Below, piece by piece: positions 15,453-27,837 of a DNA stretch of 32,000 bases; the stretch's first letter is position 1; every line of letters starts with the position of its first letter. The position numbers and the translations under genes are program-made. The DNA is from an archaeon (GTDB lineage: Archaea; Asgardarchaeota; Thorarchaeia; Thorarchaeales; Thorarchaeaceae). The stretch covers positions 6,902 through 38,901 of the forward strand of contig JAJRZD010000127.1 of the NCBI GenBank assembly GCA_024275415.1, in the 5' to 3' direction. The notes beneath the pieces were generated by a model. That model was not told the DNA's origin, did no database searches, and saw nothing but the letters and a program-made list of their open reading frames with translations.

Positions 15453-16499
15453 ATGAAAGTGGCGATTGTATCAGGTAACACTTCATCAATGATAGAAGAC
15501 GCAGATACAATTGCAGAGTTTCTCAACAACGGGAGCTTCGAGATTGTCAAGAGGGGGACAGTCAGTGCGAGTTCCAAGAGTATCGGACGGGAACTAACAA
15601 AATATACACCTGACATCTTAATTGTGATCGGCTCGGACAGGACACTGTTGAATGTGCTTCTTTCGTTGGGAGAGGTATCAGTCCCTGTTCTGCCGGTGGC
15701 TTCGAGGGGACATCCAGGTTTCCTGTTCGATGTCACATCATCGGACTTTGAACAGATTGTTGATGACATCTCCGAACACAAATGGACTGAAGAACGACGT
15801 ACCAGATTCGTTGCAAGTATCGGTAAAAAAAAGACGCCTCCATTCCTCAACGAGATAGCTATCTTTCCCCGGAGGACTGCCACATTGCTTCGATATTCGC
15901 TCTTTCTTGATGACGAGGAATTCTGGCGAGATGGGAGTGATGGTGTGATCGTATCGACTCCCACAGGTAGCACGGCATATGCGATGAGTGGAGGAGGCCC
16001 TATCATTCTGCACCCGGCATGTGTCTTCAATATCGTATCGGTGAACAGCGGCAACCCCGCCCGGAAACCTCTAGTAGTCCCAGATGACATCCGTGTTGAG
16101 ATCCGCAACCTTACGAGTTCCGTGTCAATAGATGCAGTTGTTGACGGGCAAACTAGACTCCCTGTGAAAGAGGGCAATGTTGTGTTCCAAAAATCACATG
16201 CTGATGCAGTATTTGTCAAGTTCACTGATGAGAGAGTAGCAGCGCTTCATGGTAAGTTGATGAGAAAAACTGAGGTTCGAGATGAAAGAGCTTCAGACCT
16301 TCCACCAAGCGCGAAACTTGTGTTGAAAGTCCTTGAATACCAAGGGTCGATGACCCAGAAGCAGATAATTGACGAAACCAATCTACCCCCAAGGACTGTT
16401 AGATATGCTCTGTCCCTCCTAGTTTCAGAGAATCTTGTGAAAAAACAGATTTCGCTTCGAGACAGCAGGCAGGCTCTTTATGCAATCAAAGAGGGATAA
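15453..16499 (+). CDS. nadK: NAD kinase-family domain fused to a C-terminal winged HTH
   Basis: GSDRT (degenerate GGDGT), LNEI, DGVIVSTPTGSTAYAMSGGGP, VDGQ; C-terminal LPPSAKLVLKVL..G.MTQKQI..ETNLPPRTVRYAL...RDSRQ wHTH. Confidence 0.87.
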   Translation: MKVAIVSGNTSSMIEDADTIAEFLNNGSFEIVKRGTVSASSKSIGRELTKYTPDILIVIGSDRTLLNVLLSLGEVSVPVLPVASRGHPGFLFDVTSSDFEQIVDDISEHKWTEERRTRFVASIGKKKTPPFLNEIAIFPRRTATLLRYSLFLDDEEFWRDGSDGVIVSTPTGSTAYAMSGGGPIILHPACVFNIVSVNSGNPARKPLVVPDDIRVEIRNLTSSVSIDAVVDGQTRLPVKEGNVVFQKSHADAVFVKFTDERVAALHGKLMRKTEVRDERASDLPPSAKLVLKVLEYQGSMTQKQIIDETNLPPRTVRYALSLLVSENLVKKQISLRDSRQALYAIKEG

Positions 16500-16528
16500 T
16501 TCCCATTGCTGACTGATGATGTGGTTAT

Positions 16529-18670
16529 ATGAATGATGTGAAAGACCTGATACCAAAAACTGAGAACCCAGTGATCCTTGACTTGTTCTCAAATGTGCTT
16601 CGGTCAATGGAATTGATACTAGCAGGGAAGTCATCTGACGAAACCGGGCCATTTAACGAGCCAATCGAATTGCTTTCCTACGCACTCGCAAAAAAAGCTT
16701 CATATGATCTTGAAAAATTCACGACAGCGACCTCAACGGACAAGAGGCTTTCCCTCATATTTAGGAACGCTCTTGATGGTGGCTCTGCCGGGAAGATTGT
16801 AGAAAGCTTGATCCTCGGGACTTATGGGTTCGTTCTCGGCTCCTACAATGATGAGGATTTCAGGTATCTCTATCGCTACACTCTGAAGTTGCAAAGGGGA
16901 TCTCGTAAATTTCAGGATTGGATAAAGAGGGCTCTTTGCTTTGTTGTGGCAATCCAGCACTCGTATCCACAGGAGGTTCTTCATCAAATCAGGGAGTGGA
17001 TCAGGTTCCTAGGGGCACCACTCTATCCTCCATCTGATTTCCAAGACCACTGTGCCACATTTGGCATTGACATCGAACCCATACTTTCTGATGACGAATA
17101 TCGCTCGGTGCTGTCGCTGCGTTCCCGTCCTGAATACCTGGAGGAGGCAATCCTAAACCGTCCCTTCGATGAAGTGTACAGATCCCTGAAATCGTGGACG
17201 CCTGATGGACTCCTACGCGATGCTTACAAGATTTCTGAGAAGCGGATGTACGAGAAGTTACAAGACCATATCAACGATGATATGAGCATCGCACAAGTAC
17301 TCGAGGTCTCAGAGCAGTTCTTCAGACAGAAAGGGTTCCAGGTCGATGACTCTACCGCGATTCCTGTGAAGCTTCAAAGGCTCTCCCGACCGCCTCCGCC
17401 AGATGTGATGGATCCTGCAATCTTTGAGCGGATACCACAGAAATTACGTGTCAACCTACTTCCTGCCGTCACATATTCCACCTCGATAAAGGAAGTCGAG
17501 ATTATCTTTCTCGGCGGGCCTAGAATTGGACGAAGTGGTATCCTAATCAAGACCTCAACTGGAGGTGTTCTCCTTGACTATGGTATGTCAGTAGCTAATC
17601 AAATGATTCCGGAATGGGTTCCCGAACTTGAAACCATCGATACGATCTTGGTGTCTCACAGCCACTTGGATCACGTTGGCGGTCTGCCAATTATCTATGA
17701 CACCTTTGAAGGCAAGTGGTGTAGCACAGGCATCACTGGGGCAGTCACAATGAAACTTCTTGAAGATGCCCTGAAAATCGGAACTCCCCTCCCTCCGAGA
17801 AAGACAGACACGCTGGATAGGGTGTCACGCTTTACGAAAGACAATGTAGAGGTGGTTTCTCGAAGCCATGTGACCCTCGAAGTCGGCTCATCCAGCGAGT
17901 TGGCTCCAGGGATACTCGTGACTCCGGTTGACGCATGTCACATCCCCGGCAGTGTGGCATATCTCCTAGACATTGAAGGGCTCAAGATACTGTACACCGG
18001 CGACTTCAACCTCGACCAGTCCGTCCTTTTCCCAGGTGCTTCATTCCCCACTGACCCCGATGTGTTGATCTTCGATGGCACCTATTGGAGTAGGGAGGAC
18101 TTTGATAGGGCTAAGGTCTCTCAACAACTGATGAATATTATCGAGAACTATGGTCCGGTCATCATCCCAACCTTTGCAGTGGGACGCTCTCAAGAAATCC
18201 TGACGATACTTGACAAGCTCGGCATCACGAACACCAGAAACGTGATGGTAGCGGGGATGGCAGAGGCAGTGACCAAGATGACAGGCTTCAAAGGAAAATG
18301 GCATGGACTGAAGAAGAACAAGGTCAATCTGGAAGAGGAGGATGTTCTTGTGGCTGGTGGAGGCATGATGGACGGAGGTTTCGCAAAACACCATTTCGAG
18401 CAGCACCGTGACAATAGTAAGGCAGCGGTCGTCCTCTGTGGATACCTTGCTCCACGAACTGCAGGATGGAATCTTATTCATGGTTATGAACCACATCAAT
18501 GCCATGTGGAATATGCCCGACTAAGCGCTCATTCGTCGGCATCGAGGCTTGGTGACTATATAGGATCCTGTAAAGGAAAGCGGATCATGGTTCATACTCC
18601 AGTTGCTACAACACCGAAGAATCTGACAATCCCACGATTAGAGGAACGGATAAGGCTCAAGGTGCCCTAG
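16529..18670 (+). CDS. beta-CASP metallo-beta-lactamase ribonuclease with about 320-aa N-terminal helical extension
   Basis: LLDYG, HSHLDHVGG, CHIPGS, YTGDF, FAVGRSQE, GGMMDGG, CGYLA..T.G, RLSAHS, VHT. Confidence 0.85.
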   Translation: MNDVKDLIPKTENPVILDLFSNVLRSMELILAGKSSDETGPFNEPIELLSYALAKKASYDLEKFTTATSTDKRLSLIFRNALDGGSAGKIVESLILGTYGFVLGSYNDEDFRYLYRYTLKLQRGSRKFQDWIKRALCFVVAIQHSYPQEVLHQIREWIRFLGAPLYPPSDFQDHCATFGIDIEPILSDDEYRSVLSLRSRPEYLEEAILNRPFDEVYRSLKSWTPDGLLRDAYKISEKRMYEKLQDHINDDMSIAQVLEVSEQFFRQKGFQVDDSTAIPVKLQRLSRPPPPDVMDPAIFERIPQKLRVNLLPAVTYSTSIKEVEIIFLGGPRIGRSGILIKTSTGGVLLDYGMSVANQMIPEWVPELETIDTILVSHSHLDHVGGLPIIYDTFEGKWCSTGITGAVTMKLLEDALKIGTPLPPRKTDTLDRVSRFTKDNVEVVSRSHVTLEVGSSSELAPGILVTPVDACHIPGSVAYLLDIEGLKILYTGDFNLDQSVLFPGASFPTDPDVLIFDGTYWSREDFDRAKVSQQLMNIIENYGPVIIPTFAVGRSQEILTILDKLGITNTRNVMVAGMAEAVTKMTGFKGKWHGLKKNKVNLEEEDVLVAGGGMMDGGFAKHHFEQHRDNSKAAVVLCGYLAPRTAGWNLIHGYEPHQCHVEYARLSAHSSASRLGDYIGSCKGKRIMVHTPVATTPKNLTIPRLEERIRLKVP

Positions 18671-20637
18671 GCTACTATTTCAAGTACACCATCCAAGACG
18701 AGCATTGTAGCAACGAATTTCATGGCTGCAAAGCTTAGCTTCAGCTTCTTCACTATATCCCCCAGTGGAGTTTTTCCATCACAAAGATTCACGAATTTGA
18801 TGACGATTGGGCCGTAAGGTTTCACATGTTTCTCAGGATCTGGCTCTGATATCTTCTTCAGAATGACACTAGTATCCAAATCGACTTGGAAAGTGATCCA
18901 ATCAAACTTCTTCATTATCTGGAGACAGCCGAGAACCTTTTCACGGGGGAGGTCAAGAGAACGCACCAATCCTCCCACAGTCAGTGTGCCATCAATAGCA
19001 GTCTTTACTTCAACAAGAGACCGTCCAACGTCCCTATTGGCAAATGGGAGTCCCCGTCCTGCTTCGCGTGCTCGAACCATATAGTCCAAGCTGATAGGAA
19101 CCAGTGGGATTTCACCGAGTACGTTGAAGACGGATGTTTCAAAGACGGTCATATCCCCATTCCAATCAGCCCAAATTTCATGGAACATATCTTCAATCTC
19201 AACTAGAAGGCCAGCCATCTTCTGACGGTATAATTCTTCTTCATTGTCATTTGTCACGATGAGAGCAAGTACGAAATGCTTTGATTTTTCCACCATGACA
19301 AGATTCCCTTCATGCTCGATGGTTTCCAAGGCATCAGTGGCGTCTGTGGTTCCTTCTGCGGATGGGTCGATTCCACCAAAGGAATCAAGAGCAGAAATCA
19401 GGGATGCTACCGAGTTCACATCAATCATGTTGTCTGAGTAGTCTAGGTGATAGACAACATTGAACATACCATTTTGTTGGATCAGGAGTATCAAGCTTAT
19501 GACTTTGGTTGGCAATTGGATTGGCTCGACTTCAGAAGCTACTGTGCCATCAGAAGAGGACTCGATGGCGGTATCACTGTCGCCTACTTCTGAAGCTAGC
19601 GGGATGCCACTGGGTTCGTGTGAAGAGGGTGCTTCTCGTCCTGTGTCTGACCCGTCCTCCTGATAGGGAACTGTTTCATAACCACTCTGATCATGAGGAG
19701 TCCTAGCAGAATCCATCCCCGCCTTGTCAACATCCTCGGTCTTTCGGCGAACGGTAATCATCTCACTGATTGGTCGATCGGGGAGTTGAACCCCTACGGT
19801 CTTTGCAGCCACTTCCAACATGAAGCGGATGAACTCCTCTCGTCGGGATTTGTTCGTTGCGACCATGGGAAATGTAGGAGCTCCTAGAAGTCGTTTGATC
19901 TTCTCAGCTCTCATTGATTCAGGGAGATCCTGCTTATTTGCCACAATGAACAAGGGGACTGCCGGAGCCTCTTTCTTGATATTCCTGAGAAGCGTCTTGG
20001 TCTGCATCACATTTCGAAAAGAGCTATCAGTGATGAGGAATATCACATCGGTTCCCTGGAAATAGAAGCTCCAGAGGTCTTGAAAGACTGCCTGTCCTGC
20101 AAAGTCCCAGATTGTAACCAAAAAAGTGCCGAACTGAATTGTTTCAGACGAGTCCACTGCAACATTGATTGTAGGCACATACCCACCGGGAGCTGGCTCC
20201 CTCCCAAAAAGGAGGCGAAGCAGAGTACTCTTCCCGACACCACCACTTCCAACGAAGGAAATCTTGAAACGGGTGAAAATGAGCTCACCAAGGATGTCCT
20301 CAATGTTGTCCTTGATATAGCTCATCGAGTTGCCTCTCAGCGCGGTGGCGACACGTGCAGAGCCTTCACGAATCTTGTATTGAATCACACGATCCTCATC
20401 CCGTCCATCAGTGACGAATAGAAGAAGCAGGTCATCACTGACTGGAGCGTGAAATACCTTATGAACCTCGCTCACGAAGACAGGTGTGTCAGGGGACAGA
20501 CCTTCTGTGGTATGTAAGTCGTGGTATCCCCGTAGGAATTCTTGGATGTCCTCCTGCCCGAACTCGATCTTCCAGAACCTTGACCTCACCACAATGTCCC
20601 CAGTTTCAGTTTCTATCAGTATGACATTATGGATCAT
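18667..20637 (-). CDS. Multidomain small GTPase: longin - Ras-superfamily (Arf/Rab-like) G domain - acidic linker - longin - 2x wHTH
   Basis: G1 GSGGVGKST, G2 PTI, G3 WDFAGQ, G4 NKQD; longin-like beta2-alpha-beta3-alpha patterns at the N-terminus and after the linker; two C-terminal DG-x-x-T/P wHTH repeats; SD AGGTGA. Confidence 0.88.
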   Translation of the reverse strand: MIHNVILIETETGDIVVRSRFWKIEFGQEDIQEFLRGYHDLHTTEGLSPDTPVFVSEVHKVFHAPVSDDLLLLFVTDGRDEDRVIQYKIREGSARVATALRGNSMSYIKDNIEDILGELIFTRFKISFVGSGGVGKSTLLRLLFGREPAPGGYVPTINVAVDSSETIQFGTFLVTIWDFAGQAVFQDLWSFYFQGTDVIFLITDSSFRNVMQTKTLLRNIKKEAPAVPLFIVANKQDLPESMRAEKIKRLLGAPTFPMVATNKSRREEFIRFMLEVAAKTVGVQLPDRPISEMITVRRKTEDVDKAGMDSARTPHDQSGYETVPYQEDGSDTGREAPSSHEPSGIPLASEVGDSDTAIESSSDGTVASEVEPIQLPTKVISLILLIQQNGMFNVVYHLDYSDNMIDVNSVASLISALDSFGGIDPSAEGTTDATDALETIEHEGNLVMVEKSKHFVLALIVTNDNEEELYRQKMAGLLVEIEDMFHEIWADWNGDMTVFETSVFNVLGEIPLVPISLDYMVRAREAGRGLPFANRDVGRSLVEVKTAIDGTLTVGGLVRSLDLPREKVLGCLQIMKKFDWITFQVDLDTSVILKKISEPDPEKHVKPYGPIVIKFVNLCDGKTPLGDIVKKLKLSFAAMKFVATMLVLDGVLEIVA

Positions 20638-20754
20638 TCATTGTTCACCTATCTTCTTGGATTCGATTGCGCTCAAAACGTATATTCAACTGTTCTAGTA
20701 AAACTATCCTAATAATCCACAAGATAGACTATGAAGCTTTGGTCGATGTACCTT

Positions 20755-22440
20755 TCACTCCAGGATCACAATTCCTTTTGAATACAGGTCTGAAATCACA
20801 GAAATAAGCACACTCTGCTGAATTCCAACTTCCTCACTAATCTCCATAACCGTGTGTTTCCCGTCCATCATTGCCGTAATCTTATCTATATGTGAATAGA
20901 GTTTACGAAGGGATTCATTGACCTCGCCCACCAGCCTCGGCGTATCAGAAGGGTCTAGGTTCAGCTTCAGACCGATGCAGCCCATTGCCTTGAGAAAGTG
21001 AATTGCTCCCAATGTCATATTGGGACCACTGCCAGATGATAGACGTTGGATCTCAATCGAGCCGTCAAGACTCCCCCAGACAGCCTGTAGGAAATCCCGA
21101 ACCTCCCTCGATTCAAAGCGATTCCAATCGGGCTCGTGTATCCGCACAGGACACATCTTGCCAGGAATCTCTTCTGGCGGGAGTGTTGCAAGGATCTTGA
21201 GCGTGAACGGAGGTGAAGAATATGGATCCTCTGAACTCTCGACGAACTCAGGAGATTCGTCTTTCCAGAGATCCGGAAGGAACGAGAATTGTCGGCGGAG
21301 TGACTCTACATCATCGACGACCCCAGTGACCAGCGTGAAAATCAGGTCATCGACCTCGATAAGGGCATATACCAAATCCTCGACTTGCACTACTGAGGTC
21401 TTGTCAAACTCTGCACTGCCCATCTTAAAAGAGGTCACTGCTGCAACTATGTTGGGAGCTCTACGATGTGCCTCAGCCTTCGGGACGTAATAATACGTGA
21501 ACACAGGGTTACCCGTTGATTTTTTCACAACAAAAAAGGCCTGATGTCCCGTAGGTCCTGCTGGGATAATCGCACTTTCATCTGTTGGTTGTGTGTCAAT
21601 TGAGGCGTCCATGGGCCATCGTTCCAATGCCAGATCAGGATGCATATCAGTCAACCCCATTATCGCCAAGACTGATACCAACAGGTAAGAAGCGTCCTTG
21701 GAAACTGAATCACAGAGTTCGATTTGGAGATCCGTTTCATACCTCCTTGCGTGTTCCAGTTCGTCGTCAGAACCAGGAGCAATAAGGATCGGGACTGAAA
21801 TCTTCGACCTGATACCTTCCACAATCCCCTCAATGACTGACCTGTCAGGTAGAGGCCTCCCAAGAACAAGTATAACTCCTGCGGGATTGTCTTCTACAGC
21901 AATATCTGGGTCAGACACAACTGCTGAGAATGTGTACTTGGCAGCCCTGATATTGTAGGGTCCGATGGCAATATGACCGTGAACCTTCATGTGCTTCTCA
22001 ATATTGCTTAGAGCACCACCGGTGATGTTCTCAAAGGACGGCTCTTTATCCGAGATGAAGACCAGATAGAGACCTCTCCTCAATAGGTCGCCAGCCGTAC
22101 TAGAAAAGGTCTTTCTGATCTCACGCATTCCATGTTCCTTTGCAAGATGAGTGAGGCGCGAAGCCAGCTCCGCCACCTGACGTTTTTCTTCTTCAGAGAA
22201 CAAAGAAGTACTGGATACGACAACAAGGAGAGCCTTACCAGCGACCAAGTGGAGACAGACTCCTCGACCATCTTCTAGTTCGAAGACATGGCCGTTCTCA
22301 AATGCCAGCTCCTGAAGTAGCCCAAAATACGACTCGATAATAGGTTGTATAGGGAAACTCTCTGTGTCATTATCCACAAACGAGACCGATGCCCATGGCT
22401 TAGCACCTACTAAGTCGTATAGTATCGATCTCTCTATCAA
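20755..22440 (-). CDS. Longin - degenerate G domain - longin - 2x wHTH protein (paralogue of 18667..20637)
   Basis: Same domain order; longin HQAFFVVKKSTGNPVFTY..; C-terminal LDGSIEI and MDGKHTVMEISEEVG wHTH repeats; no G1/G3/G4 motifs. Confidence 0.75.
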   Translation of the reverse strand: MIERSILYDLVGAKPWASVSFVDNDTESFPIQPIIESYFGLLQELAFENGHVFELEDGRGVCLHLVAGKALLVVVSSTSLFSEEEKRQVAELASRLTHLAKEHGMREIRKTFSSTAGDLLRRGLYLVFISDKEPSFENITGGALSNIEKHMKVHGHIAIGPYNIRAAKYTFSAVVSDPDIAVEDNPAGVILVLGRPLPDRSVIEGIVEGIRSKISVPILIAPGSDDELEHARRYETDLQIELCDSVSKDASYLLVSVLAIMGLTDMHPDLALERWPMDASIDTQPTDESAIIPAGPTGHQAFFVVKKSTGNPVFTYYYVPKAEAHRRAPNIVAAVTSFKMGSAEFDKTSVVQVEDLVYALIEVDDLIFTLVTGVVDDVESLRRQFSFLPDLWKDESPEFVESSEDPYSSPPFTLKILATLPPEEIPGKMCPVRIHEPDWNRFESREVRDFLQAVWGSLDGSIEIQRLSSGSGPNMTLGAIHFLKAMGCIGLKLNLDPSDTPRLVGEVNESLRKLYSHIDKITAMMDGKHTVMEISEEVGIQQSVLISVISDLYSKGIVILE

Positions 22441-22490
22441 GCTGGCTACCCCGTTGCGCTGCGTTGGTTCTATGAAGACAACACCCTAAA

Positions 22491-23738
22491 TCAACTTTCT
22501 CTTACCTGCTTCCGCAGGAATTCTTCAAAAGTGATATGGCCTCGCATAAAGCGCTGGTAGTTGCTCTGAATCCATTGTACGTCGTATGGCATCTCGTGAC
22601 ATCCTTCACCCGACGCTATCTCCGGCAGATCCGAGATTGCCTCACCGACCGAGATAGGATCCATCCTGTCGTCGTCTTCCCTTTGCGAAGCCGGATCATT
22701 CCTTCGACGGTCTTTGATAGCACTGAACATTGGTCGGGGCGGTTCGAGATAGTCACTAGTCCTGCTAGCAATGATGAATATCCGTCTTCTACGCTGAGGA
22801 ACACCGTACTCTTCGGCTCCCAACTGGAACCACTGAGGCAAATATCCAATCTCTCTGAGAGAGGATAGAATCCTATCTAAAGCTGCGCCCTTGTTTCGAA
22901 TTCGGAGACCTGTCACGTTCTCAATCAACACAAACTCAGGACACAGAGATTCCACCATCCTGAACATAGAGAGTATGAGATTGTTCCGGGGATCCTCTTT
23001 GTCCCATTTTCCAGCCATCGAAAAACCCTGACAAGGAGGACCTCCAGCAAGAAGTTGCAATGTCCGTCCTCCAAGATGCGACTCAACCTGTGCAATGAAT
23101 TCCTCTATTTCATGGGCTTTGCTGAAGTCCACATCAATAACCGTTGTCCCCTCATGGTTTGCAGTATAGGTCGCTCGCATGTGAGGCTCTTTCTCTCCAG
23201 CAATGATGACCTCATGCCCTGACTCTCGAAGCCCGCATGACAATCCACCGGCTCCTGAGAACACATCGACACATAACCCGGGTTTTACAAGTCCACCTAT
23301 AGCACGTGCAAGCAATGGTGGGACTGCATTGCCAATCTGTTTGTACATGGACGAGTTACTTCCTAGGAACCTGTAGTCGTCAGGAAATGACTGCAACCTG
23401 GCTGCCTCCCTGAACGAGATTAGACGGTCCTGAGCTGGGTGGATGAACGTGCCATTGCCGGGGCGATTGAAGTAAGTATTAATCGTATAGCTCGGAAGAT
23501 CAGGCCGGAGTCGTCCATAATAGGTCGTGCGTCCGCCCGTACTACGAATCCGCATGACGCGAGCTGACCTCTGTGCAACAGACAAGGGGATGTCCTGCCA
23601 GTTCCCTCCGGGACGAATTGAGCGCACCATTTGGACATCAAGCTCACTAAGATTAGCCGAAACATGATTGTAGAGCACTGTAGACTCGTTTCTTGTCTTC
23701 TGCGACTTGTTAGTGAGCATCATCATCAGATACCACAC
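22491..23738 (-). CDS. dcm: Circularly permuted DNA (cytosine-5) methyltransferase, M2.Eco31I/Alw26I/Esp3I type; likely start ATG about 23726
   Basis: Order TRD - IX (SFREAARLQSFPD) - X (QIGNAVPP) - I (DVFSGAGG) - IV (GGPPCQGFS) - VI (ENV) - VIII (YGVPQRRRR). Confidence 0.92.
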   Translation of the reverse strand: MWYLMMMLTNKSQKTRNESTVLYNHVSANLSELDVQMVRSIRPGGNWQDIPLSVAQRSARVMRIRSTGGRTTYYGRLRPDLPSYTINTYFNRPGNGTFIHPAQDRLISFREAARLQSFPDDYRFLGSNSSMYKQIGNAVPPLLARAIGGLVKPGLCVDVFSGAGGLSCGLRESGHEVIIAGEKEPHMRATYTANHEGTTVIDVDFSKAHEIEEFIAQVESHLGGRTLQLLAGGPPCQGFSMAGKWDKEDPRNNLILSMFRMVESLCPEFVLIENVTGLRIRNKGAALDRILSSLREIGYLPQWFQLGAEEYGVPQRRRRIFIIASRTSDYLEPPRPMFSAIKDRRRNDPASQREDDDRMDPISVGEAISDLPEIASGEGCHEMPYDVQWIQSNYQRFMRGHITFEEFLRKQVRES

Positions 23739-23818
23739 AACATAGTTTCCTGCATGAAAAGATTTCCTCGATTACTTTCAATGTTACTTAGAGAGAGGAT
23801 TCGACTTTTGATAAGGGG

Positions 23819-24286
23819 TCACAATGAACGCCTAAAGCGATTCATGTCGGGAATGTCAAGAAGGGTATAACCACTCCCATCCCAATGTAAGATACGATAC
23901 TCGGTGCTATGCCCGAGCATTGAGCCGATTATGAATGCTGCAGAAACAGGACAGGCAAGCACAACGGCAAGTGAATGACCTCCAACGCTCTTCCCTACCT
24001 TATGGATCAGGACAGCAGCTCCCTCAGACCATTGTGTGATTTCTGACGGTTTAAGCTGTTTCGGGACTCCAATCTCGCCCACGATACAGTATCCTGCAAG
24101 AGTGACATCTCGCTTTGTGTCATGACTGAAATTGACCACGATCGCAGGGGGACGACTGTCCAAGTCTGAATAGTTGAAAGGAACTAAAACCCCCGTTTTC
24201 AACCGTTTGGCAAGTCCACTGAATCTAGTCTTGAATGTATATATGCTATTCATGATAGAAAGAATGATAGTAATAGCATCAGGCAT
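23819..24286 (-). CDS. Stand-alone SAVED-like (C-terminal lobe) protein A
   Basis: VVNFSHD...LAVVLACPVSAAFIIGSMLGH..YRILHWDGSGY matches the SAVED C-lobe pattern; clear paralogue of 24439..24903. Confidence 0.65.
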   Translation of the reverse strand: MPDAITIILSIMNSIYTFKTRFSGLAKRLKTGVLVPFNYSDLDSRPPAIVVNFSHDTKRDVTLAGYCIVGEIGVPKQLKPSEITQWSEGAAVLIHKVGKSVGGHSLAVVLACPVSAAFIIGSMLGHSTEYRILHWDGSGYTLLDIPDMNRFRRSL

Positions 24287-24438
24287 ATCCCACTAAACTC
24301 CTCATGACAGTGAGATATTCCTTCTCATTAATCTTTTTCTGAACAGCTCACATGGGAATGTGAAGGCGGAAAGTGAAAATCTGTGTCCGGTATCTCCATA
24401 AGGAAGAAAGCTGATTCAGCATTGACGGAGATACACCG

Positions 24439-24903
24439 ATGTCAAATGATCTTGAACAAGAAAAAGAGAAGATAAAGATAGGACATTTGGAAGTAACGGG
24501 TCTCTCATCCCTTGTTACCTCACTTTCCGATGAAAAGGAATCATCAACTCTGTTGGACACCAATGCGGAGGTTGTAATAGGTGTGAGCCTGTCCAGACCA
24601 GTGCTTCAAGATCTCGAAAGAGAAGGATACAGCGTAATTGCTGACATTGGACCTCCTCGTCAGATAGAAATATCAGAAATGACTGGGCTTGCAGAGGACG
24701 TAGCAATCATAATAGACAAGCTGAGAAGGATGGTAAAATGCAAAAGCATTACCTTGGTGTTATCATGTCCCACTGCTGTTGCCTTCATGATTGGCAGCTT
24801 GCTAGGACATCAGTTCACTTATCGCCTGTTGCATTGGGACAATGGATATGTACGTGTGCCAGACTATGGCATCAAACGTTACAGGAAAGAAATCAAAGGA
24901 TAG
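24439..24903 (+). CDS. Stand-alone SAVED-like (C-terminal lobe) protein B
   Basis: VIGVSLSRPV...ITLVLSCPTAVAFMIGSLLGH..YRLLHWDNGY; GGAG SD. Confidence 0.68.
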   Translation: MSNDLEQEKEKIKIGHLEVTGLSSLVTSLSDEKESSTLLDTNAEVVIGVSLSRPVLQDLEREGYSVIADIGPPRQIEISEMTGLAEDVAIIIDKLRRMVKCKSITLVLSCPTAVAFMIGSLLGHQFTYRLLHWDNGYVRVPDYGIKRYRKEIKG

Positions 24904-24944
24904 TAGTAACGTTCACTTCAGAACGAACAGCCAATAGAACGGGA

Positions 24945-27134
24945 TTACATTAGTTCTTGGATTTCCTTAACCGTGTTCTTGTCATTCTTACGATAAGCCA
25001 AGACCTTCGAAGCCTCGTTCCTATTGAAACCATAGAGGGACAATACCAACGCCTCAATCATGGGATGTGAGTGGTTAGAGGGTTTTCGAATGGCACCCAC
25101 AAGAGATGCTATGTGAGTCGCCCGTTCCTCATTGTTCTCAACAAACGGGTCAGCAACTGGTAAACTAGCAAGCTCACGATTAGAAACGTGGTTGTTCGAG
25201 CTTGCAATGGTGAATCTCCAGTTAAGCAGCTCCGAGTTCAGCACACCCATAAGGTAATACAACACCCAGTCAGGAGTGCCATTCTGTAGAACAATATAGT
25301 TGCAAGAGTTTGCCAGCACTATTCGGGGCTTGACGGGAGCGAACTTCAGCCGCCAGTGATTCTGTTGGTTTGACACCTGCTGACAGGCAATCCTCAGTGA
25401 TGTGATATGCTTCATTCGGGACGAGTTCCTCTTTGAGGAATAGAAGGCATTGTAATCGACATGTTCAGAGTTATCACGGAACTTTCCTGACAAAGCGTAC
25501 CGACCAATACCAGAGCCTCGGAGCAACAGATAAGAACCGGATCCCTTGTGAATGAATTGTTTGTCAAGTGTCAAATCCAATTCGCCTCGATGGTTCCTGA
25601 GCCAATGATAACTTGAAAGGGGGGCGTGCTTGTGCATCTTCCGAAGCAGTTTCCAGTCATGGGAATCGACCCGGGGGATTGCGTAGGATTCACCAAAGAC
25701 ACGTTTGATGTCTTGCAGTTTCAACCGGTACGATCTTGTACCATGTTTCACACCTGACGAGCCCATGCCAAACTGTACCTTGAATGCCCTTGTTGTGCCT
25801 GTTCTCTGGACATGACCTATGCAGACAGATTGCGTGACTTGCTCGAACAGACGGGCGGACTCTGGGAACTCTGTGATAGTCAGTATACAGTTGTTGACGA
25901 GCAGATCCTTTCGTAACTTGGATGCGGATGCGTCAGCAAGAAGAGTGGATGGCACGATGAATCCAATCTCACCGTTTTCCCGTGTGAGCATCAACGCCCT
26001 TTCGATGAAGAGATGATATGTGTTGATGGAGGCTGAAATGCTTGAAGCATACTCTCCAGACCGTCTGAAATAGAGCAGGTCTTCTTGCATCTGGAGCTTG
26101 TGATCCTCATACTCGTCCATATTGATGATTCTTGAACCAGCCCGTAGCTTGGTTCGCATAAACTCAGCTCTATTGGGTTTCAATCTGGAGTATGGTGGAT
26201 TGAACAACAGGATATCGAACCCACCCCTTTCGAGTTGCTCGCTAAACTCATCCTTCCATTCGAACGGAGTTCTTGAACGCGGCTCTGCAAAGAACCTCTC
26301 ATGAGACCCTGTGACTCTCCAGCCTCTGAGATTGATCAGTGAATTGCCTACTCTGAACTGTTCATCCCGGATAGCACGGTGGGATGCCAGAGAAAGGGAG
26401 GTCTTGGCAATTTCCAATGCGGCCGGGTCAATATCAACACCACAGATGTTCTCGGATATTCGGGTCAATGCTTCTGAGGTTGCTTGAGGAGAGAGAAGTG
26501 ACGAGAGCGAATCCCTGATTGCCTCGAATGCAGCAACTAGGAAGATACCTGAGCCACAGCAGGGATCTAGAACCGACAGGTCATCAAATCCTGACAGGGA
26601 GTGAGCTTGATTGTGACCTATCCGGCTCAAGTATGAACCGACGGTCTGACGAGCAATAAACCGGGCAATAAGAGCAGGGGTGTAGAAGATGCCCCGTAAT
26701 CGTTTCTCCAGAAACCCCGTGCTCCCAGAGCTATAGGTTGTACCTGAGTGGATTAGTCCTAACACTTCAGATAACATAACTGCATCAAGACTGGCGGTGG
26801 TATTAGATTCCGGTTCGAACTCGTCCTGCAGTATCTCCCTAATGACCTTCAACACGAGATCTTTGTCAACGGATTGGCCTTTGGACAGAGAAGACATCTC
26901 ACGGATGGCAAGACAGTCAGTCGAGGTCGTAGGTCTCTGCCACGACGTGATGACCGCATTCAATGCAAGCAAACGGGTTGCCTCTAATGCCTCTGGGGAG
27001 GGATCCAAGATTTTCCGGATTGTTTCATGCGATTGCTTGATGAAGTGGACTGCGATGCCTGAAGATGTGTTGAATTCACTGAGCATTGTCGGTTGTATGA
27101 CCATGCCTGAACAAAAAGGATTCTCACATAACAT
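24945..27134 (-). CDS. N6-adenine DNA methyltransferase, Alw26I/Eco31I/Esp3I family (gamma class)
   Basis: GIFYTP, motif I LDPCCGSGIFL, motif IV NPPY, family-type TRD motifs RGELDLT, CQQVSN, LANSCNYI, LLNWRF..SSNNHVSN. Confidence 0.9.
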   Translation of the reverse strand: MLCENPFCSGMVIQPTMLSEFNTSSGIAVHFIKQSHETIRKILDPSPEALEATRLLALNAVITSWQRPTTSTDCLAIREMSSLSKGQSVDKDLVLKVIREILQDEFEPESNTTASLDAVMLSEVLGLIHSGTTYSSGSTGFLEKRLRGIFYTPALIARFIARQTVGSYLSRIGHNQAHSLSGFDDLSVLDPCCGSGIFLVAAFEAIRDSLSSLLSPQATSEALTRISENICGVDIDPAALEIAKTSLSLASHRAIRDEQFRVGNSLINLRGWRVTGSHERFFAEPRSRTPFEWKDEFSEQLERGGFDILLFNPPYSRLKPNRAEFMRTKLRAGSRIINMDEYEDHKLQMQEDLLYFRRSGEYASSISASINTYHLFIERALMLTRENGEIGFIVPSTLLADASASKLRKDLLVNNCILTITEFPESARLFEQVTQSVCIGHVQRTGTTRAFKVQFGMGSSGVKHGTRSYRLKLQDIKRVFGESYAIPRVDSHDWKLLRKMHKHAPLSSYHWLRNHRGELDLTLDKQFIHKGSGSYLLLRGSGIGRYALSGKFRDNSEHVDYNAFYSSKRNSSRMKHITSLRIACQQVSNQQNHWRLKFAPVKPRIVLANSCNYIVLQNGTPDWVLYYLMGVLNSELLNWRFTIASSNNHVSNRELASLPVADPFVENNEERATHIASLVGAIRKPSNHSHPMIEALVLSLYGFNRNEASKVLAYRKNDKNTVKEIQELM

Positions 27135-27165: not shown

Positions 27166-27837
27166 CTAGCGGTATCTCCGCATGTCTGACTCTGCAAGCC
27201 GGAGCCCCAGCAACACGATATCTGTCCCTTTCATATCGATAATCCGTTTGAGATTGGAAAGCATTTCTGGAGTGTTGTTCTTCAGGAACCCATAGAATGT
27301 GTCCTCAGATTGACAGAGGGCACGGTATAGCTTTTCTATATAGCCAAGCAGTACACTCTTCTTTACGTTCCTGACACCATATTTGTACCGCAGGTAGTTA
27401 CGGACAAGGTCAAGCACATACTGCCCGATTTCCTTGGAGTCCTTGACTACCTCTTCTGTGACGCGTCGAGGTGTGGAGTGCATCCGTTTCATCCTCGCAC
27501 GTCGGCTTCCGAGGGCCAGTTTGATCTCTTCGAGAGGAGCCCGAGGAGTCAACGGGACACCAATATCCGTTTCTGAAATCAATCGTCGATATGCCCTGTG
27601 ACCATGCAAGTCCAAGGATGAAAGATAGCCCTTTGCTTCCATCTCTCTGAGAGTTTTTCGAAACTCTTCACGGCTTACTAGTGACGTTTCTCCGGATATT
27701 TGGAGGAACCTCTCGTAAAGGCTCTCCTCATAGAGGATGACCGTCCATCCAAAGGCCCGTGCAATATCTAATTCTAGGCGGCTTAGTCGTTCAGTGCGTG
27801 CGTTCAGATCAGGCAACGTATGCCCCCCGCTCGTCAT
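27166..27837 (-). CDS. Hypothetical basic protein with probable N-terminal wHTH
   Basis: SREEFRKTLREMEAKGYL...GHRAYRRL recognition-helix/wing pattern; co-oriented 31 nt upstream of the m6A MTase ORF. Confidence 0.6.
   Translation of the reverse strand: MTSGGHTLPDLNARTERLSRLELDIARAFGWTVILYEESLYERFLQISGETSLVSREEFRKTLREMEAKGYLSSLDLHGHRAYRRLISETDIGVPLTPRAPLEEIKLALGSRRARMKRMHSTPRRVTEEVVKDSKEIGQYVLDLVRNYLRYKYGVRNVKKSVLLGYIEKLYRALCQSEDTFYGFLKNNTPEMLSNLKRIIDMKGTDIVLLGLRLAESDMRRYR

What the first reader, a model, noticed from the sequence alone, without database searches (positions are those of the whole stretch)
23819..24903. Two divergent, paralogous stand-alone half-SAVED genes inserted between the two MTases of a nuclease-less R-M locus
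Seen: two ~155-aa ORFs 152 bp apart, back to back, align over ~110 aa (AIVVNFSHD/VIGVSLSRP; IVGEIGVPKQL/VIADIGPPRQI; VLACPVSAAFIIGSMLGH/VLSCPTAVAFMIGSLLGH; YRILHWD.SGY/YRLLHWDNGY) and have unrelated N-termini. Known: this pattern resembles the C-terminal CARF-like lobe of SAVED, the cyclic-oligonucleotide sensor of CBASS and type III CRISPR. SAVED normally has two lobes and is fused to an effector. Here each protein has one lobe and no effector, and no CD-NTase or Cas10 is in the window. Inference: a split or dimerising nucleotide sensor, or a ring-nuclease/sponge (conserved His in GH and HW), coupled to a DNA-methylation module. This would be a candidate undescribed MTase-SAVED system.
Basis: partly seen in the sequence, partly recalled or inferred. 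Interest (0 to 1): 0.87.

Follow-up and report, generated by a model that had tools for sequence, protein, structure and literature searches.

The report
Two-gene split SAVED, CRISPR-linked
Two small neighbouring genes each encode one half of a SAVED-type cyclic-nucleotide sensor; related archaea carry the same pair beside type III CRISPR genes, so it most likely binds or destroys the CRISPR alarm molecule, and its position between two DNA methylase genes here is an accident of insertion.

Summary
ORF A (23819-24286, minus strand, 155 aa) and ORF B (24439-24903, plus strand, 154 aa) are divergent paralogues (38% identity, E 2e-28). Each is a single SAVED-like lobe. B passes Pfam SAVED. The family profile hits both lobes of the ring nuclease AcrIII-2 (E 1e-14). 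The B model (pLDDT 88) matches SAVED C-lobes (Z 11.7).

[quoted passage not shown] is supported. A and B always co-occur, as divergent, tandem or fused (A-B, 336 aa) genes. The predicted A:B complex scores 0.92 against 0.00 for controls.

In five related genomes the pair and the MTases lie on different contigs. In the four of these where the two MTase genes share a contig, they are directly adjacent. In three genomes they sit 48-72 bp apart within a conserved syntenic block.

The pair lies in or near type III CRISPR-Cas loci in 5 of 7 informative contexts. Those loci already encode CARF effectors: Csx1, Can2-like, CARF-PIN or Card1-like. The window's genome has two Cas10 loci with intact GGDD motifs, and a Csx1.

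Best reading: an effector-less heterodimeric SAVED that binds cOA, probably cA4, and acts as an off-switch. Catalysis is uncertain because the AcrIII-2 catalytic His is not conserved. This is a new variant of a known kind. The scan had noted this stretch before only on this same DNA.

The parts
23819..24286 (-). Gene A: A-type half-SAVED, 155 aa. It has an N-terminal hydrophobic/amphipathic helix (aa ~4-20) followed by one SAVED-like lobe (aa ~45-155).
   Evidence: ORF. PADLOC SAVED4--SAVED 9.2e-6, positions 4-101 of 104. Pfam SAVED 15.6 bits, below the cut-off. A-types form one clade with 100/100 support. Orthologues at 41-52% identity occur in 8 other loci. N-terminal hydropathy.
24287..24438 (.). 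152-bp divergent intergenic spacer, presumably holding the promoters of both genes.
   Evidence: The same head-to-head layout is found in L003, L004, L005, L039, L040, G036, G021, G018 and G019. No promoter motif was established.
24439..24903 (+). Gene B: B-type half-SAVED, 154 aa. It has an N-terminal beta-hairpin and helix (aa 9-30) followed by one SAVED-like lobe.
   Evidence: Pfam SAVED 27.6 bits against a 26.2 cut-off. PADLOC 4.6e-11. AF2 model pLDDT 88.3, pTM 0.83. VIA-align: AcrIII-2 9r8s_B Z 11.7, rmsd 2.4 A over 119 aa, on its C-lobe 104-235.
23739..24944 (.). The 1.2-kb cassette (A, spacer, B and short flanks) inserted into the intergenic gap between the two MTase genes.
   Evidence: In G036, G010 and G018 the orthologous MTase genes are 48-72 bp apart in the same syntenic block. 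Cassette GC is 0.438 and GC3 0.41-0.44, against GC3 0.51-0.53 in the MTases. No terminal repeats of note.
22491..23738 (-). Flank, not part of the module: C5 cytosine DNA methyltransferase, the downstream half of an Alw26I/Esp3I-type A+C methylase pair.
   Evidence: Pfam DNA_methylase 3.4e-60. PADLOC PDLC03237 positions 644-1020. Orthologues at 49-58% identity lie next to the N6A MTase in the relatives G036, G010, G018 and G019.
24945..27134 (-). Flank, not part of the module: N6-adenine DNA methyltransferase of the Alw26I/Eco31I/Esp3I family.
   Evidence: TIGR02987 at 293.5 bits, below the 353.5 cut-off. Eco57I/N6_Mtase/TaqI_C domains. PADLOC PDLC03237 positions 221-634.

Best explanation
A and B are the two subunits of a split SAVED sensor with no effector domain.

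Shown or strongly indicated:
- Each protein is one SAVED-type CARF-like lobe of the CalpL/AcrIII-2 ('SAVED4') kind.
- The two paralogues are inherited together, as divergent, tandem or fused genes.
- They are predicted to pair through the conserved helix after strand 4 (the CP.A.AF.IG.LLGH motif), giving a pseudo-symmetric heterodimer equivalent to one SAVED domain.

Inferred:
- The heterodimer binds a cyclic oligoadenylate made by type III CRISPR Cas10. This is most likely cA4, given the Csx1 and Can2 effectors that accompany the pair elsewhere.
- It has no effector domain, and it sits in loci that already have effectors. It therefore most likely acts as an extrinsic off-switch or dampener. 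It would either cleave cOA in a composite site formed by head-to-tail stacking, as in AcrIII-2/Crn5, CalpL and Csx15, or sequester it as a sponge, as some Csx15 proteins do.
- In this genome it would work in trans on the two type III loci.

Its position between the two methyltransferase genes is a lineage-specific insertion with no functional meaning.
For: Fold and family:
- B passes Pfam SAVED.
- Both proteins match PADLOC SAVED4--SAVED nearly full length.
- The family profile hits AcrIII-2 (9r8s) at E 1.1e-14 on both of its lobes, and CalpL at 2e-6.
- The B model has pLDDT 88.3.
- The Foldseek top 46 matches are all SAVED proteins.
- In an exhaustive VIA-align search the top 13 are all SAVED (Z 11.7-7.2). 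Canonical CARFs score only Z ~5.5.

Partnership:
- Every one of the six genomes with a hit in the own family has exactly one A and one B.
- Every metagenomic contig long enough has both.
- Three gene layouts exist: divergent, tandem A->B with a 14-nt gap (L043), and fused A-B (P0004, 336 aa, = G010).
- The predicted A:B complex scores ipSAE 0.92 against 0.00 for the best of 3 controls. The mark was reached by 58 of 80 solved complexes and 2 of 110 mismatched pairs. The runs agree in at least 97% of contacts and partner pLDDT is at least 87. The interface is A 110-127 with B 108-124.

Type III CRISPR link:
- L043: the pair lies inside a III-B locus between cas6 and cas1-cas2, with Csx1.
- G036/L006: the pair lies between a Cas10/RAMP operon and a CRISPR array.
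- G010/L008: the fused gene lies next to CRISPR repeats, a CARF protein and a Cas10 operon.
- L038: Csx1, a Can2-like gene and a III-D Cas10 lie within 4.4 kb.
- G018: a CARF-PIN gene and Cmr6 lie 6.5-8 kb away.

Own genome:
- Two Cas10 genes with intact GGDD motifs, a Csx1 (CARF-HEPN-CARF) and two Csa3-like CARF-wHTH genes.

Precedent:
- Stand-alone SAVED proteins AcrIII-2/Crn5 are cA4 ring nucleases (PMC12751052).
- Single-lobe Csx15 dimers stack on cA4 and cleave or sponge it (PMC13148439; bioRxiv 10.64898/2026.10.26.761840).
Against: - No ligand binding or cleavage was tested.
- The AcrIII-2 catalytic His (H128, the second H of 'SHHE' after strand 1 of lobe 2) is not conserved. B-types have an invariant 'SR' there and A-types have S followed by H, Q, R, V or G.
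- The Ser equivalent to S194 varies between S and A. It is Ser in B and Ala in A.
- The alignment of the C-terminal R.R/K helix to R96/K99 is imprecise.
- The complex predictor cannot separate a heterodimer from homodimers of close paralogues. It may also pass by likeness to solved SAVED and CARF structures.
- In this genome, and in G019, the pair is not near cas genes, and no Cas10 was found in G019 (91% complete).
- The hydrophobic N-terminal helix of the A-type is unexplained.
Confidence: 0.6

Rival explanations
1. One reading: the pair is functionally coupled to the two methyltransferases, forming a new MTase-SAVED defence or epigenetic system.
For: In this window the pair sits exactly between the N6A and C5 MTase genes, 41-80 bp from each. 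No restriction endonuclease is recognisable nearby.
Against: In G010, G018, G019, G021 and G036 the pair and the MTase orthologues lie on different contigs. In G036, G010 and G018 the MTases are 48-72 bp apart. There they sit within a block that is syntenic with the window from the MTases through the GTPases to the NADK-wHTH gene. The short contigs L003-L005 carry the pair without MTases at the flanks. The cassette has lower GC and GC3 than the MTases. None of the six same-genus genomes has the pair.
Confidence: 0.03
2. The heterodimer is itself a cOA-activated effector or signal transducer, not an off-switch. On cOA-driven stacking, the hydrophobic N-terminal helices of the A subunits cluster. 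They would then perturb the membrane, as TM-SAVED, Cam1 or Csx23 do, or recruit another protein.
For: All A-types carry a hydrophobic N-terminal stretch of ~17-20 residues followed by basic residues. Its Kyte-Doolittle 17-residue mean is 1.2-2.0. PADLOC SAVED4--SAVED_TM is the second-best model for both proteins. TM-SAVED filaments are solved structures (9wq2 and 9wq3 appear among the matches).
Against: Hydropathy is borderline: 1.20 in the window's own A, and several orthologues have K, D or E inside the stretch. One short helix per heterodimer is a weak membrane effector. The PADLOC TM-model match covers only the SAVED part, not the TM region. The loci holding the pair already encode Csx1, Can2-like, Card1-like or CARF-PIN effectors.
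Confidence: 0.15
3. A and B do not pair. Each forms its own Csx15-like homodimer, giving two separate ring nucleases or sponges with different ligand preferences.
For: Csx15 and CARF ring nucleases are homodimers (PMC13148439). A and B share the same dimer-helix motif, so homodimers are sterically plausible. A more distant clade (P0018, P0021, P0022) seems to occur as single genes.
Against: A and B co-occur strictly 1:1 in every genome and every adequate contig. There is a natural A-B fusion and a tandem operon form. The A and B clades have stayed distinct, with 100/100 support. A high-confidence hetero-interface is predicted.
Confidence: 0.12
4. In this genome the cassette is cargo of a mobile element and acts as an anti-CRISPR, like viral AcrIII-2, rather than as a host regulator.
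For: The cassette is a lineage-specific insertion with lower GC, away from cas genes. The closest solved relative, AcrIII-2, is viral (PMC12751052). Distribution is patchy: 6 of 86 genomes of the family and 0 of 6 congeners.
Against: No integrase, transposase, terminal repeats or other mobile-element genes flank it. In most other genomes it is embedded in host CRISPR-Cas loci. The biochemistry would be the same as in the best explanation; only the beneficiary differs.
Confidence: 0.07

Closest known systems
AcrIII-2 / Crn5 (stand-alone SAVED ring nucleases derived from the CalpL SAVED domain; PDB 9R8S; PMC12751052)
   Same: It is effector-less and of the SAVED4/CalpL kind. It is the best sequence match (profile E 1.1e-14) and the best structural match (Z 11.7). 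The cellular members (Crn5) lie in type III loci, as this pair does in related genomes. The head-to-tail stacking mechanism is a plausible model.
   Different: AcrIII-2/Crn5 is one chain with two diverged lobes. Here there are two genes, each encoding one lobe, and both lobes are most like the C-lobe. The catalytic H128 is not conserved, and the S194 equivalent is present in B only. The N-terminal extensions differ.
Csx15 (single-lobe CARF/SAVED-like ring nuclease or sponge; PMC13148439; bioRxiv 10.64898/2026.10.26.761840)
   Same: It is a small (~130-160 aa) single-lobe protein whose dimer superimposes on one SAVED monomer. It is associated with type III CRISPR and can act in trans. Csx15-Csx15 fusions exist, which parallels the A-B fusion here.
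   Different: Csx15 is a homodimer from one gene. Here two diverged paralogues (38% identity) are always present together. By sequence this family is SAVED, not Csx15: only SAVED-related (SAVED or CRISPR-Lon) models were significant in Pfam, NCBIfam and PADLOC. The N-terminal catalytic His of Csx15 (H8/H13) has no conserved counterpart.
CalpL (Lon-SAVED) SAVED domain
   Same: It belongs to the same SAVED4 clade. The PADLOC CRISPR-Lon and SAVED_LON models match both proteins, at E 1.6e-7 to 0.05, and 7qda matches at E 2e-6, Z 9.8. The 'HY/HW' and 'P.A.AF.G' motifs are shared.
   Different: There is no Lon protease, no CalpT/CalpS partners were looked for or seen nearby, and the protein is split into two chains.
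CBASS SAVED effectors (Cap4, Cap5, TIR-SAVED, TM-SAVED)
   Same: The lobe has the same fold (Z 9-11).
   Different: There is no fused effector. No CD-NTase (SMODS) was found in the genome. The context is type III CRISPR, not CBASS.

Membership tests
SAVED domain (Pfam PF18145 / NCBIfam NF033611) | Sequence match to the family model above its curated cut-off | tested here: inconclusive
   B: Pfam 27.6 bits against 26.2 (met). A: 15.6 bits (not met). NCBIfam: B 29.9 and A 15.6 bits against a cut-off of 33 (not met). Profile-level homology to AcrIII-2 and CalpL is clear.
SAVED domain (Pfam PF18145 / NCBIfam NF033611) | Fold of a SAVED lobe (CARF-like Rossmann lobe lacking one alpha-beta unit) | tested here: met
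   B model pLDDT 88.3. All top 13 structures in the exhaustive search are SAVED, Z 11.7-7.2, with unrelated folds at or below 6.1. A was not modelled alone.
SAVED domain (Pfam PF18145 / NCBIfam NF033611) | Two CARF-like lobes fused in one polypeptide | tested here: not met
   Each protein covers one lobe only: profile positions 71-180 of 190, and the 104-position PADLOC model end to end. The two-lobe state exists only in the fused relative P0004/G010.
SAVED domain (Pfam PF18145 / NCBIfam NF033611) | Fusion to an effector domain | tested here: not met
   No other domain was found in either protein. The ~40-aa N-termini have no family match.
AcrIII-2 / Crn5 stand-alone SAVED ring nuclease | Catalytic residues H128 and S194 (lower face) and R96 and K99 (upper face) | tested here: inconclusive
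   The H128 position is P in B and D in A, with a neighbouring R (B, invariant) or H/Q/R/V/G (A). The S194 position is Ser in B and Ala in A. A C-terminal R.R/K motif is conserved, but its register against R96/K99 is uncertain.
AcrIII-2 / Crn5 stand-alone SAVED ring nuclease | Location in a type III CRISPR locus (Crn5) or a virus (AcrIII-2) | tested here: inconclusive
   Not met in this window. Met for orthologues in L043, G036, G010 and L038, and loosely in G018.
AcrIII-2 / Crn5 stand-alone SAVED ring nuclease | cA4 binding and cleavage | not testable with these tools
   This needs biochemistry.
Csx15 | Sequence membership in the Csx15 family | tested here: inconclusive
   No model named Csx15 matched in Pfam, NCBIfam or PADLOC at E<=1. 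Whether these libraries hold a Csx15 model was not established. The Csx15 structures (9TEU/9TET) seem to be absent from the PDB copies searched.
Csx15 | Single lobe that dimerises into a SAVED-like unit | tested here: met
   This rests on prediction only: A:B ipSAE 0.92 against control 0.00, with the interface on the helix after strand 4. It is a heterodimer rather than a homodimer.
MTase-linked defence system (R-M-like) | Conserved co-location of the SAVED pair with the MTase genes | tested here: not met
   They lie on different contigs in five relatives. The MTases are adjacent to each other in four of these, 48-72 bp apart in the three examined.
CBASS | A CD-NTase (SMODS) cyclase in the genome or locus | tested here: not met
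   No PF18144 match in the 3.53-Mb assembly, which is 92.9% complete, so absence is not proven.

The most novel reading that the evidence does not exclude
The A/B pair is an obligate heterodimeric 'half-SAVED', and it represents a stage in SAVED evolution that has been proposed but not observed. In that scheme a single-lobe unit duplicates, the copies form a heterodimer of diverged paralogues, and the genes later fuse. One small archaeal family preserves all three gene layouts: divergent, tandem and fused. The pair would also define a new type III CRISPR ring-nuclease or sponge family with an asymmetric cOA site built from two chains.
Probability: 0.35. Interest if true: 0.65.

Novelty: new variant of a known kind. 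Interest (0 to 1): 0.5.

Why it matters
Stand-alone SAVED proteins (AcrIII-2/Crn5) and single-lobe Csx15 proteins were recognised as off-switches of type III CRISPR signalling only in 2025-2026. The idea that SAVED arose by duplication and fusion of a Csx15-like unit is also recent.

This pair is a two-gene SAVED that occurs as divergent, tandem and fused genes within one archaeal family. That makes it a natural system for testing how a symmetric homodimeric sensor becomes an asymmetric one. It would also add a ring-nuclease or sponge family in archaea whose genomes encode Arf-like GTPases.

The work also removes a false lead: there is no MTase-SAVED system here.

Tried and rejected
- A single-sequence AF2 model of B was useless (pLDDT 48). 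The alignment-based model replaced it.
- I tried to fold the fused relative P0004 with half-length homologues. MAFFT stacked all the single-lobe rows on the N-half, so that alignment was not used.
With A5 it returned only the already known G036 contig, titled 'uncultured archaeon'.
- The search for homologous proteins found few near-length relatives: 2 for B and 1 for A. For P0004 it found none but itself.
- No Csx15 chain appeared in the PDB sequence search at E<=10 or in the structure searches. The Csx15 entries are probably newer than the copies, so this says nothing on the relationship.
- No sequencing run holding the stretch was listed, so expression could not be examined.
- The repeat search around the cassette found no terminal repeats. 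The 20-nt inverted repeat I2 is only the paralogous 'LHWD' coding stretch on opposite strands.
- dN/dS is usable for only one close pair, because dS is saturated elsewhere.
- The Makarova 2020 CARF/SAVED classification could not be read. Whether its 'SAVED4' group already lists such half-length forms therefore rests only on the existence of the 104-position PADLOC model.
- Contexts for P0009, P0017 and P0021 were too short to inform.
Full report
**1. Observation**

The window holds ORF A at 23819..24286 (minus strand, 155 aa) and ORF B at 24439..24903 (plus strand, 154 aa). They are transcribed divergently from a 152-bp spacer. BLASTP of A against B gives 38% identity over 117 residues, E 2e-28, and the first ~40 residues are unrelated.

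B matches Pfam SAVED (PF18145) above the gathering score: 27.6 against 26.2 bits, on profile positions 71-180 of 190. A matches below it, at 15.6 bits. PADLOC holds a 104-position model, 'SAVED4--SAVED'. Both proteins match it almost end to end, B at 4.6e-11 and A at 9.2e-6. The next-best models are the C-terminal parts of the CRISPR-Lon (CalpL-type) models.

The flanks are a C5 MTase and an Alw26I/Eco31I/Esp3I-family N6A MTase. Together they cover one fused 1036-position PADLOC MTase model in the order A-part then C-part.

**2. What each protein is**

A profile of 21 family members (alignment A1) was searched against all PDB sequences.
- Its best hit is the viral stand-alone SAVED ring nuclease AcrIII-2 (9r8s), E 1.1e-14. 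There are two stretches, one on each of its lobes.
- Next is CalpL (7qda/8b0r), E 2e-6.

With that alignment AlphaFold2 gives a confident model of B: pLDDT 88.3, pTM 0.83. It has a beta-hairpin and helix followed by a five-stranded Rossmann-like lobe.
- The first 46 Foldseek matches are all SAVED proteins.
- VIA-align ranks AcrIII-2 first: Z 11.7, rmsd 2.4 A over 119 residues, on its C-terminal lobe 104-235.
- Then come Cap5, SAVED-CHAT, Cap14, TM-SAVED, CalpL, TIR-SAVED and Cap4.
- In an exhaustive search of 48,161 representatives the top 13 are all SAVED. Unrelated folds start at Z 6.1, and canonical CARF domains score about 5.5.

hhalign places both the A-type and the B-type profiles on the C-lobe of an AcrIII-2-like protein, with probabilities of 94% and 96%. 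A and B are more like each other (38%) than either is like any SAVED lobe (15-20%). They therefore look like the product of a duplication of one C-lobe-like unit. They do not look like the two halves of a cleaved SAVED.

**3. The two genes belong together**

The family is rare. An exhaustive phmmer search of 1.84 billion representatives found 22 proteins. In 400 genomes of the phylum it occurs in 6 of 86 genomes of the window's own family, with one weak hit elsewhere. None of the six same-genus genomes has it.

Each of the six genomes has exactly one A-type and one B-type copy. So does every metagenomic contig that is long enough.

A-types form one clade with 100/100 support.

Three gene layouts occur:
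- head-to-head, as in the window, G036, G021, G018, G019 and L003-L005, L039, L040;
- tandem A->B with a 14-nt gap (L043/L044);
- a single fused A-B protein of 336 aa (P0004, = G010).

A fusion of two separately encoded partners is classical evidence that they act together.

The complex predictor supports binding of A to B.
- The score is ipSAE 0.92, against 0.00 for the best of 3 controls.
- The mark was reached by 58 of 80 solved complexes and 2 of 110 mismatched pairs.
- The three runs agree in at least 97% of contacts, and partner pLDDT is at least 87.
- The interface is centred on the conserved helix after strand 4, A 110-127 against B 108-124.
- This is the CARF/SAVED inter-lobe interface. 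The pass may partly reflect likeness to solved structures, and it cannot exclude homodimers.

Purifying selection is evident in the closest orthologue pair: dN 0.10 for A and 0.14 for B, with saturated dS.

**4. The real genomic partner is type III CRISPR-Cas, not the MTases**

In the five related genomes that carry the pair, the orthologues of both MTases lie on other contigs. In four of these the two MTase genes are directly adjacent to each other.

In G036, G010 and G018 the whole block is syntenic with the window. It runs N6A-MTase, C5-MTase, 561-aa GTPase-like paralogue, 656-aa Arf-like GTPase, beta-CASP nuclease, NADK-wHTH. There the two MTase genes are only 48-72 bp apart.

The 1.2-kb cassette at 23739-24944 is therefore an insertion specific to this lineage. 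Its GC (0.438) and GC3 (0.41-0.44) are below those of the MTases (GC3 0.51-0.53).

The pair is instead found with type III CRISPR-Cas:
- L043/L044: inside a III-B locus between cas6 and cas1-cas2, with a Csx1.
- G036 (= L006): between a Cas10/RAMP operon and a long CRISPR array, with a Card1-like CARF gene.
- G010/L008: as the fused gene, next to CRISPR repeats, a CARF protein and a Cas10 operon.
- L038: next to a Can2-like CARF-PD-D/ExK gene, a Csx1 and a III-D Cas10 4.4 kb away.
- G018: 6.5-8 kb from a CARF-PIN gene and the end of a Cmr operon.

Only the window and G019 show no cas neighbours. That is 5 of 7 informative contexts, spread over different subtypes and gene layouts.

The window's genome encodes cOA signalling elsewhere.
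- Contig C83 has a III-B locus whose Cas10 carries an intact GGDD motif, a Csx1 (CARF-HEPN-CARF) and a Csa3-like CARF-wHTH.
- Contig C37 has a second locus with a Cas10d-like protein, also with GGDD, and another CARF-wHTH.
- No CD-NTase was found (assembly 92.9% complete).

**5. Mechanism**

Shown or strongly indicated: single SAVED-type lobes, obligate co-inheritance, and a predicted pseudo-symmetric heterodimer.

Inferred: the heterodimer binds a cyclic oligoadenylate. It has no effector domain, and it accompanies loci that already encode CARF effectors (Csx1, Can2-like, CARF-PIN, Card1-like). The most economical role is therefore an extrinsic off-switch, as for Crn1-5, Csx15, Csx16 and Csx20.

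The nearest characterised proteins all sandwich cA4 between head-to-tail stacked units and use a composite site. These are AcrIII-2/Crn5, the CalpL SAVED domain and Csx15 (PMC12751052; PMC13148439; bioRxiv 10.64898/2026.10.26.761840).

Whether this pair cleaves or only sequesters the ligand is open.
- The catalytic His of AcrIII-2 (H128, the second H of 'SHHE' after strand 1 of the C-lobe) aligns to P in B and D in A. It is preceded by an invariant Arg in B-types and by a variable H/Q/R/V/G in A-types.
- The S194 position is Ser in B and Ala in A.
- A C-terminal R.R/K helix is conserved, but its register against R96/K99 is uncertain.
- Some Csx15 proteins are non-catalytic sponges (PMC13148439), so either outcome has precedent.

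**6. Rivals**

- MTase coupling is rejected (section 4).
- An effector role through the hydrophobic N-terminal helix of A-types cannot be excluded. Its hydropathy is borderline, 1.2-2.0 over 17 residues and 1.20 in the window's own copy. Dedicated effectors are also already present in the loci.
- Separate homodimers are disfavoured by the strict 1:1 co-occurrence and by the fusion.
- An anti-CRISPR carried by a mobile element is possible for this particular insertion. No mobile-element hallmarks flank it, however, and most relatives sit in host CRISPR loci.

**7. Comparison and novelty**

By sequence and fold the proteins belong to the SAVED superfamily, CalpL/AcrIII-2 clade. They fail the defining architecture of a SAVED domain, which has two fused lobes and usually an effector.

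They work like Csx15 in that a single lobe dimerises. They are not recognisably Csx15 by sequence, and they are heterodimeric.

I found no description of a two-gene, heterodimeric SAVED in the papers searched. The existence of a 104-position 'SAVED4--SAVED' model in PADLOC suggests that half-length forms were seen in the 2020 CARF/SAVED census, which I could not read.

I class the pair as a new variant of a known kind.

Earlier notes of this scan on this same stretch said the same about the orphan Alw26I-type MTase pair and about the insertion. I tested both here and they hold.

Noticed in passing
window 15453-27134; L046, L047, L048: The block N6A-MTase / C5-MTase / 561-aa GTPase-like paralogue / 656-aa Arf-like GTPase / 713-aa beta-CASP / 348-aa NADK-wHTH is syntenic in three other genera at 35-64% aa identity. 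No endonuclease-like gene lies beside the MTases. The Alw26I-type A+C methylase pair thus looks like a vertically inherited orphan pair rather than an R-M island.
   Followed up: partly
window 22491-23738 (-): The C5 MTase has a permuted motif order. Residues ~13-150 carry the C-terminal motifs (QIGNAVPP), and residues 156-349 match profile positions 3-180 (PPCQGFS, ENV). It is colinear with PADLOC PDLC03237/PDLC03381, so this order seems typical of the Alw26I/Esp3I family.
   Followed up: partly
window 27166-27837 (-): A 223-aa ORF directly upstream of the N6A MTase has no significant match in Pfam, NCBIfam or PADLOC (E<=0.001), and no orthologue in the syntenic loci of the three relatives.
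   Followed up: partly
G000 contig C83 18925-26928 (L036) and contig C37 16403-29622 (L037): There are two type III CRISPR-Cas loci in the same genome. One is III-B (Cmr) with Csx1 (CARF-HEPN-CARF, 581 aa) and a Csa3-like CARF-wHTH. The other has a short Cas10d-like protein (479 aa), large fused RAMP proteins (705, 556 and 664 aa) and a CARF-wHTH. Three ORFs of 324-398 aa before that Cas10 have no family match.
   Followed up: partly
L031 14113-19842 (G036 contig C4): A long CRISPR array with the 37-nt repeat CTTTCAATTCCCTTAATCTGGGATTCTCTTCTGCGAC lies 3.2 kb from the SAVED pair. Between them are a 290-aa and a 370-aa gene with no family match and a weak 186-aa CARF-like gene.
   Followed up: no
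P0018, P0021, P0022 (142-145 aa), P0017 (290 aa); L041, L042: A more distant clade consists of single-lobe proteins and a tandem two-lobe form, branching outside A+B in the tree. The contexts retrieved are short and show no cas genes. One sits near an Arf-family GTPase gene.
   Followed up: partly
L033 3494-4834 (G018): A PbeA-like helicase gene (PADLOC 2.3e-53) and three unannotated genes of 400-520 aa lie between the Cmr/CARF-PIN genes and the SAVED pair. This could be a larger defence island.
   Followed up: no
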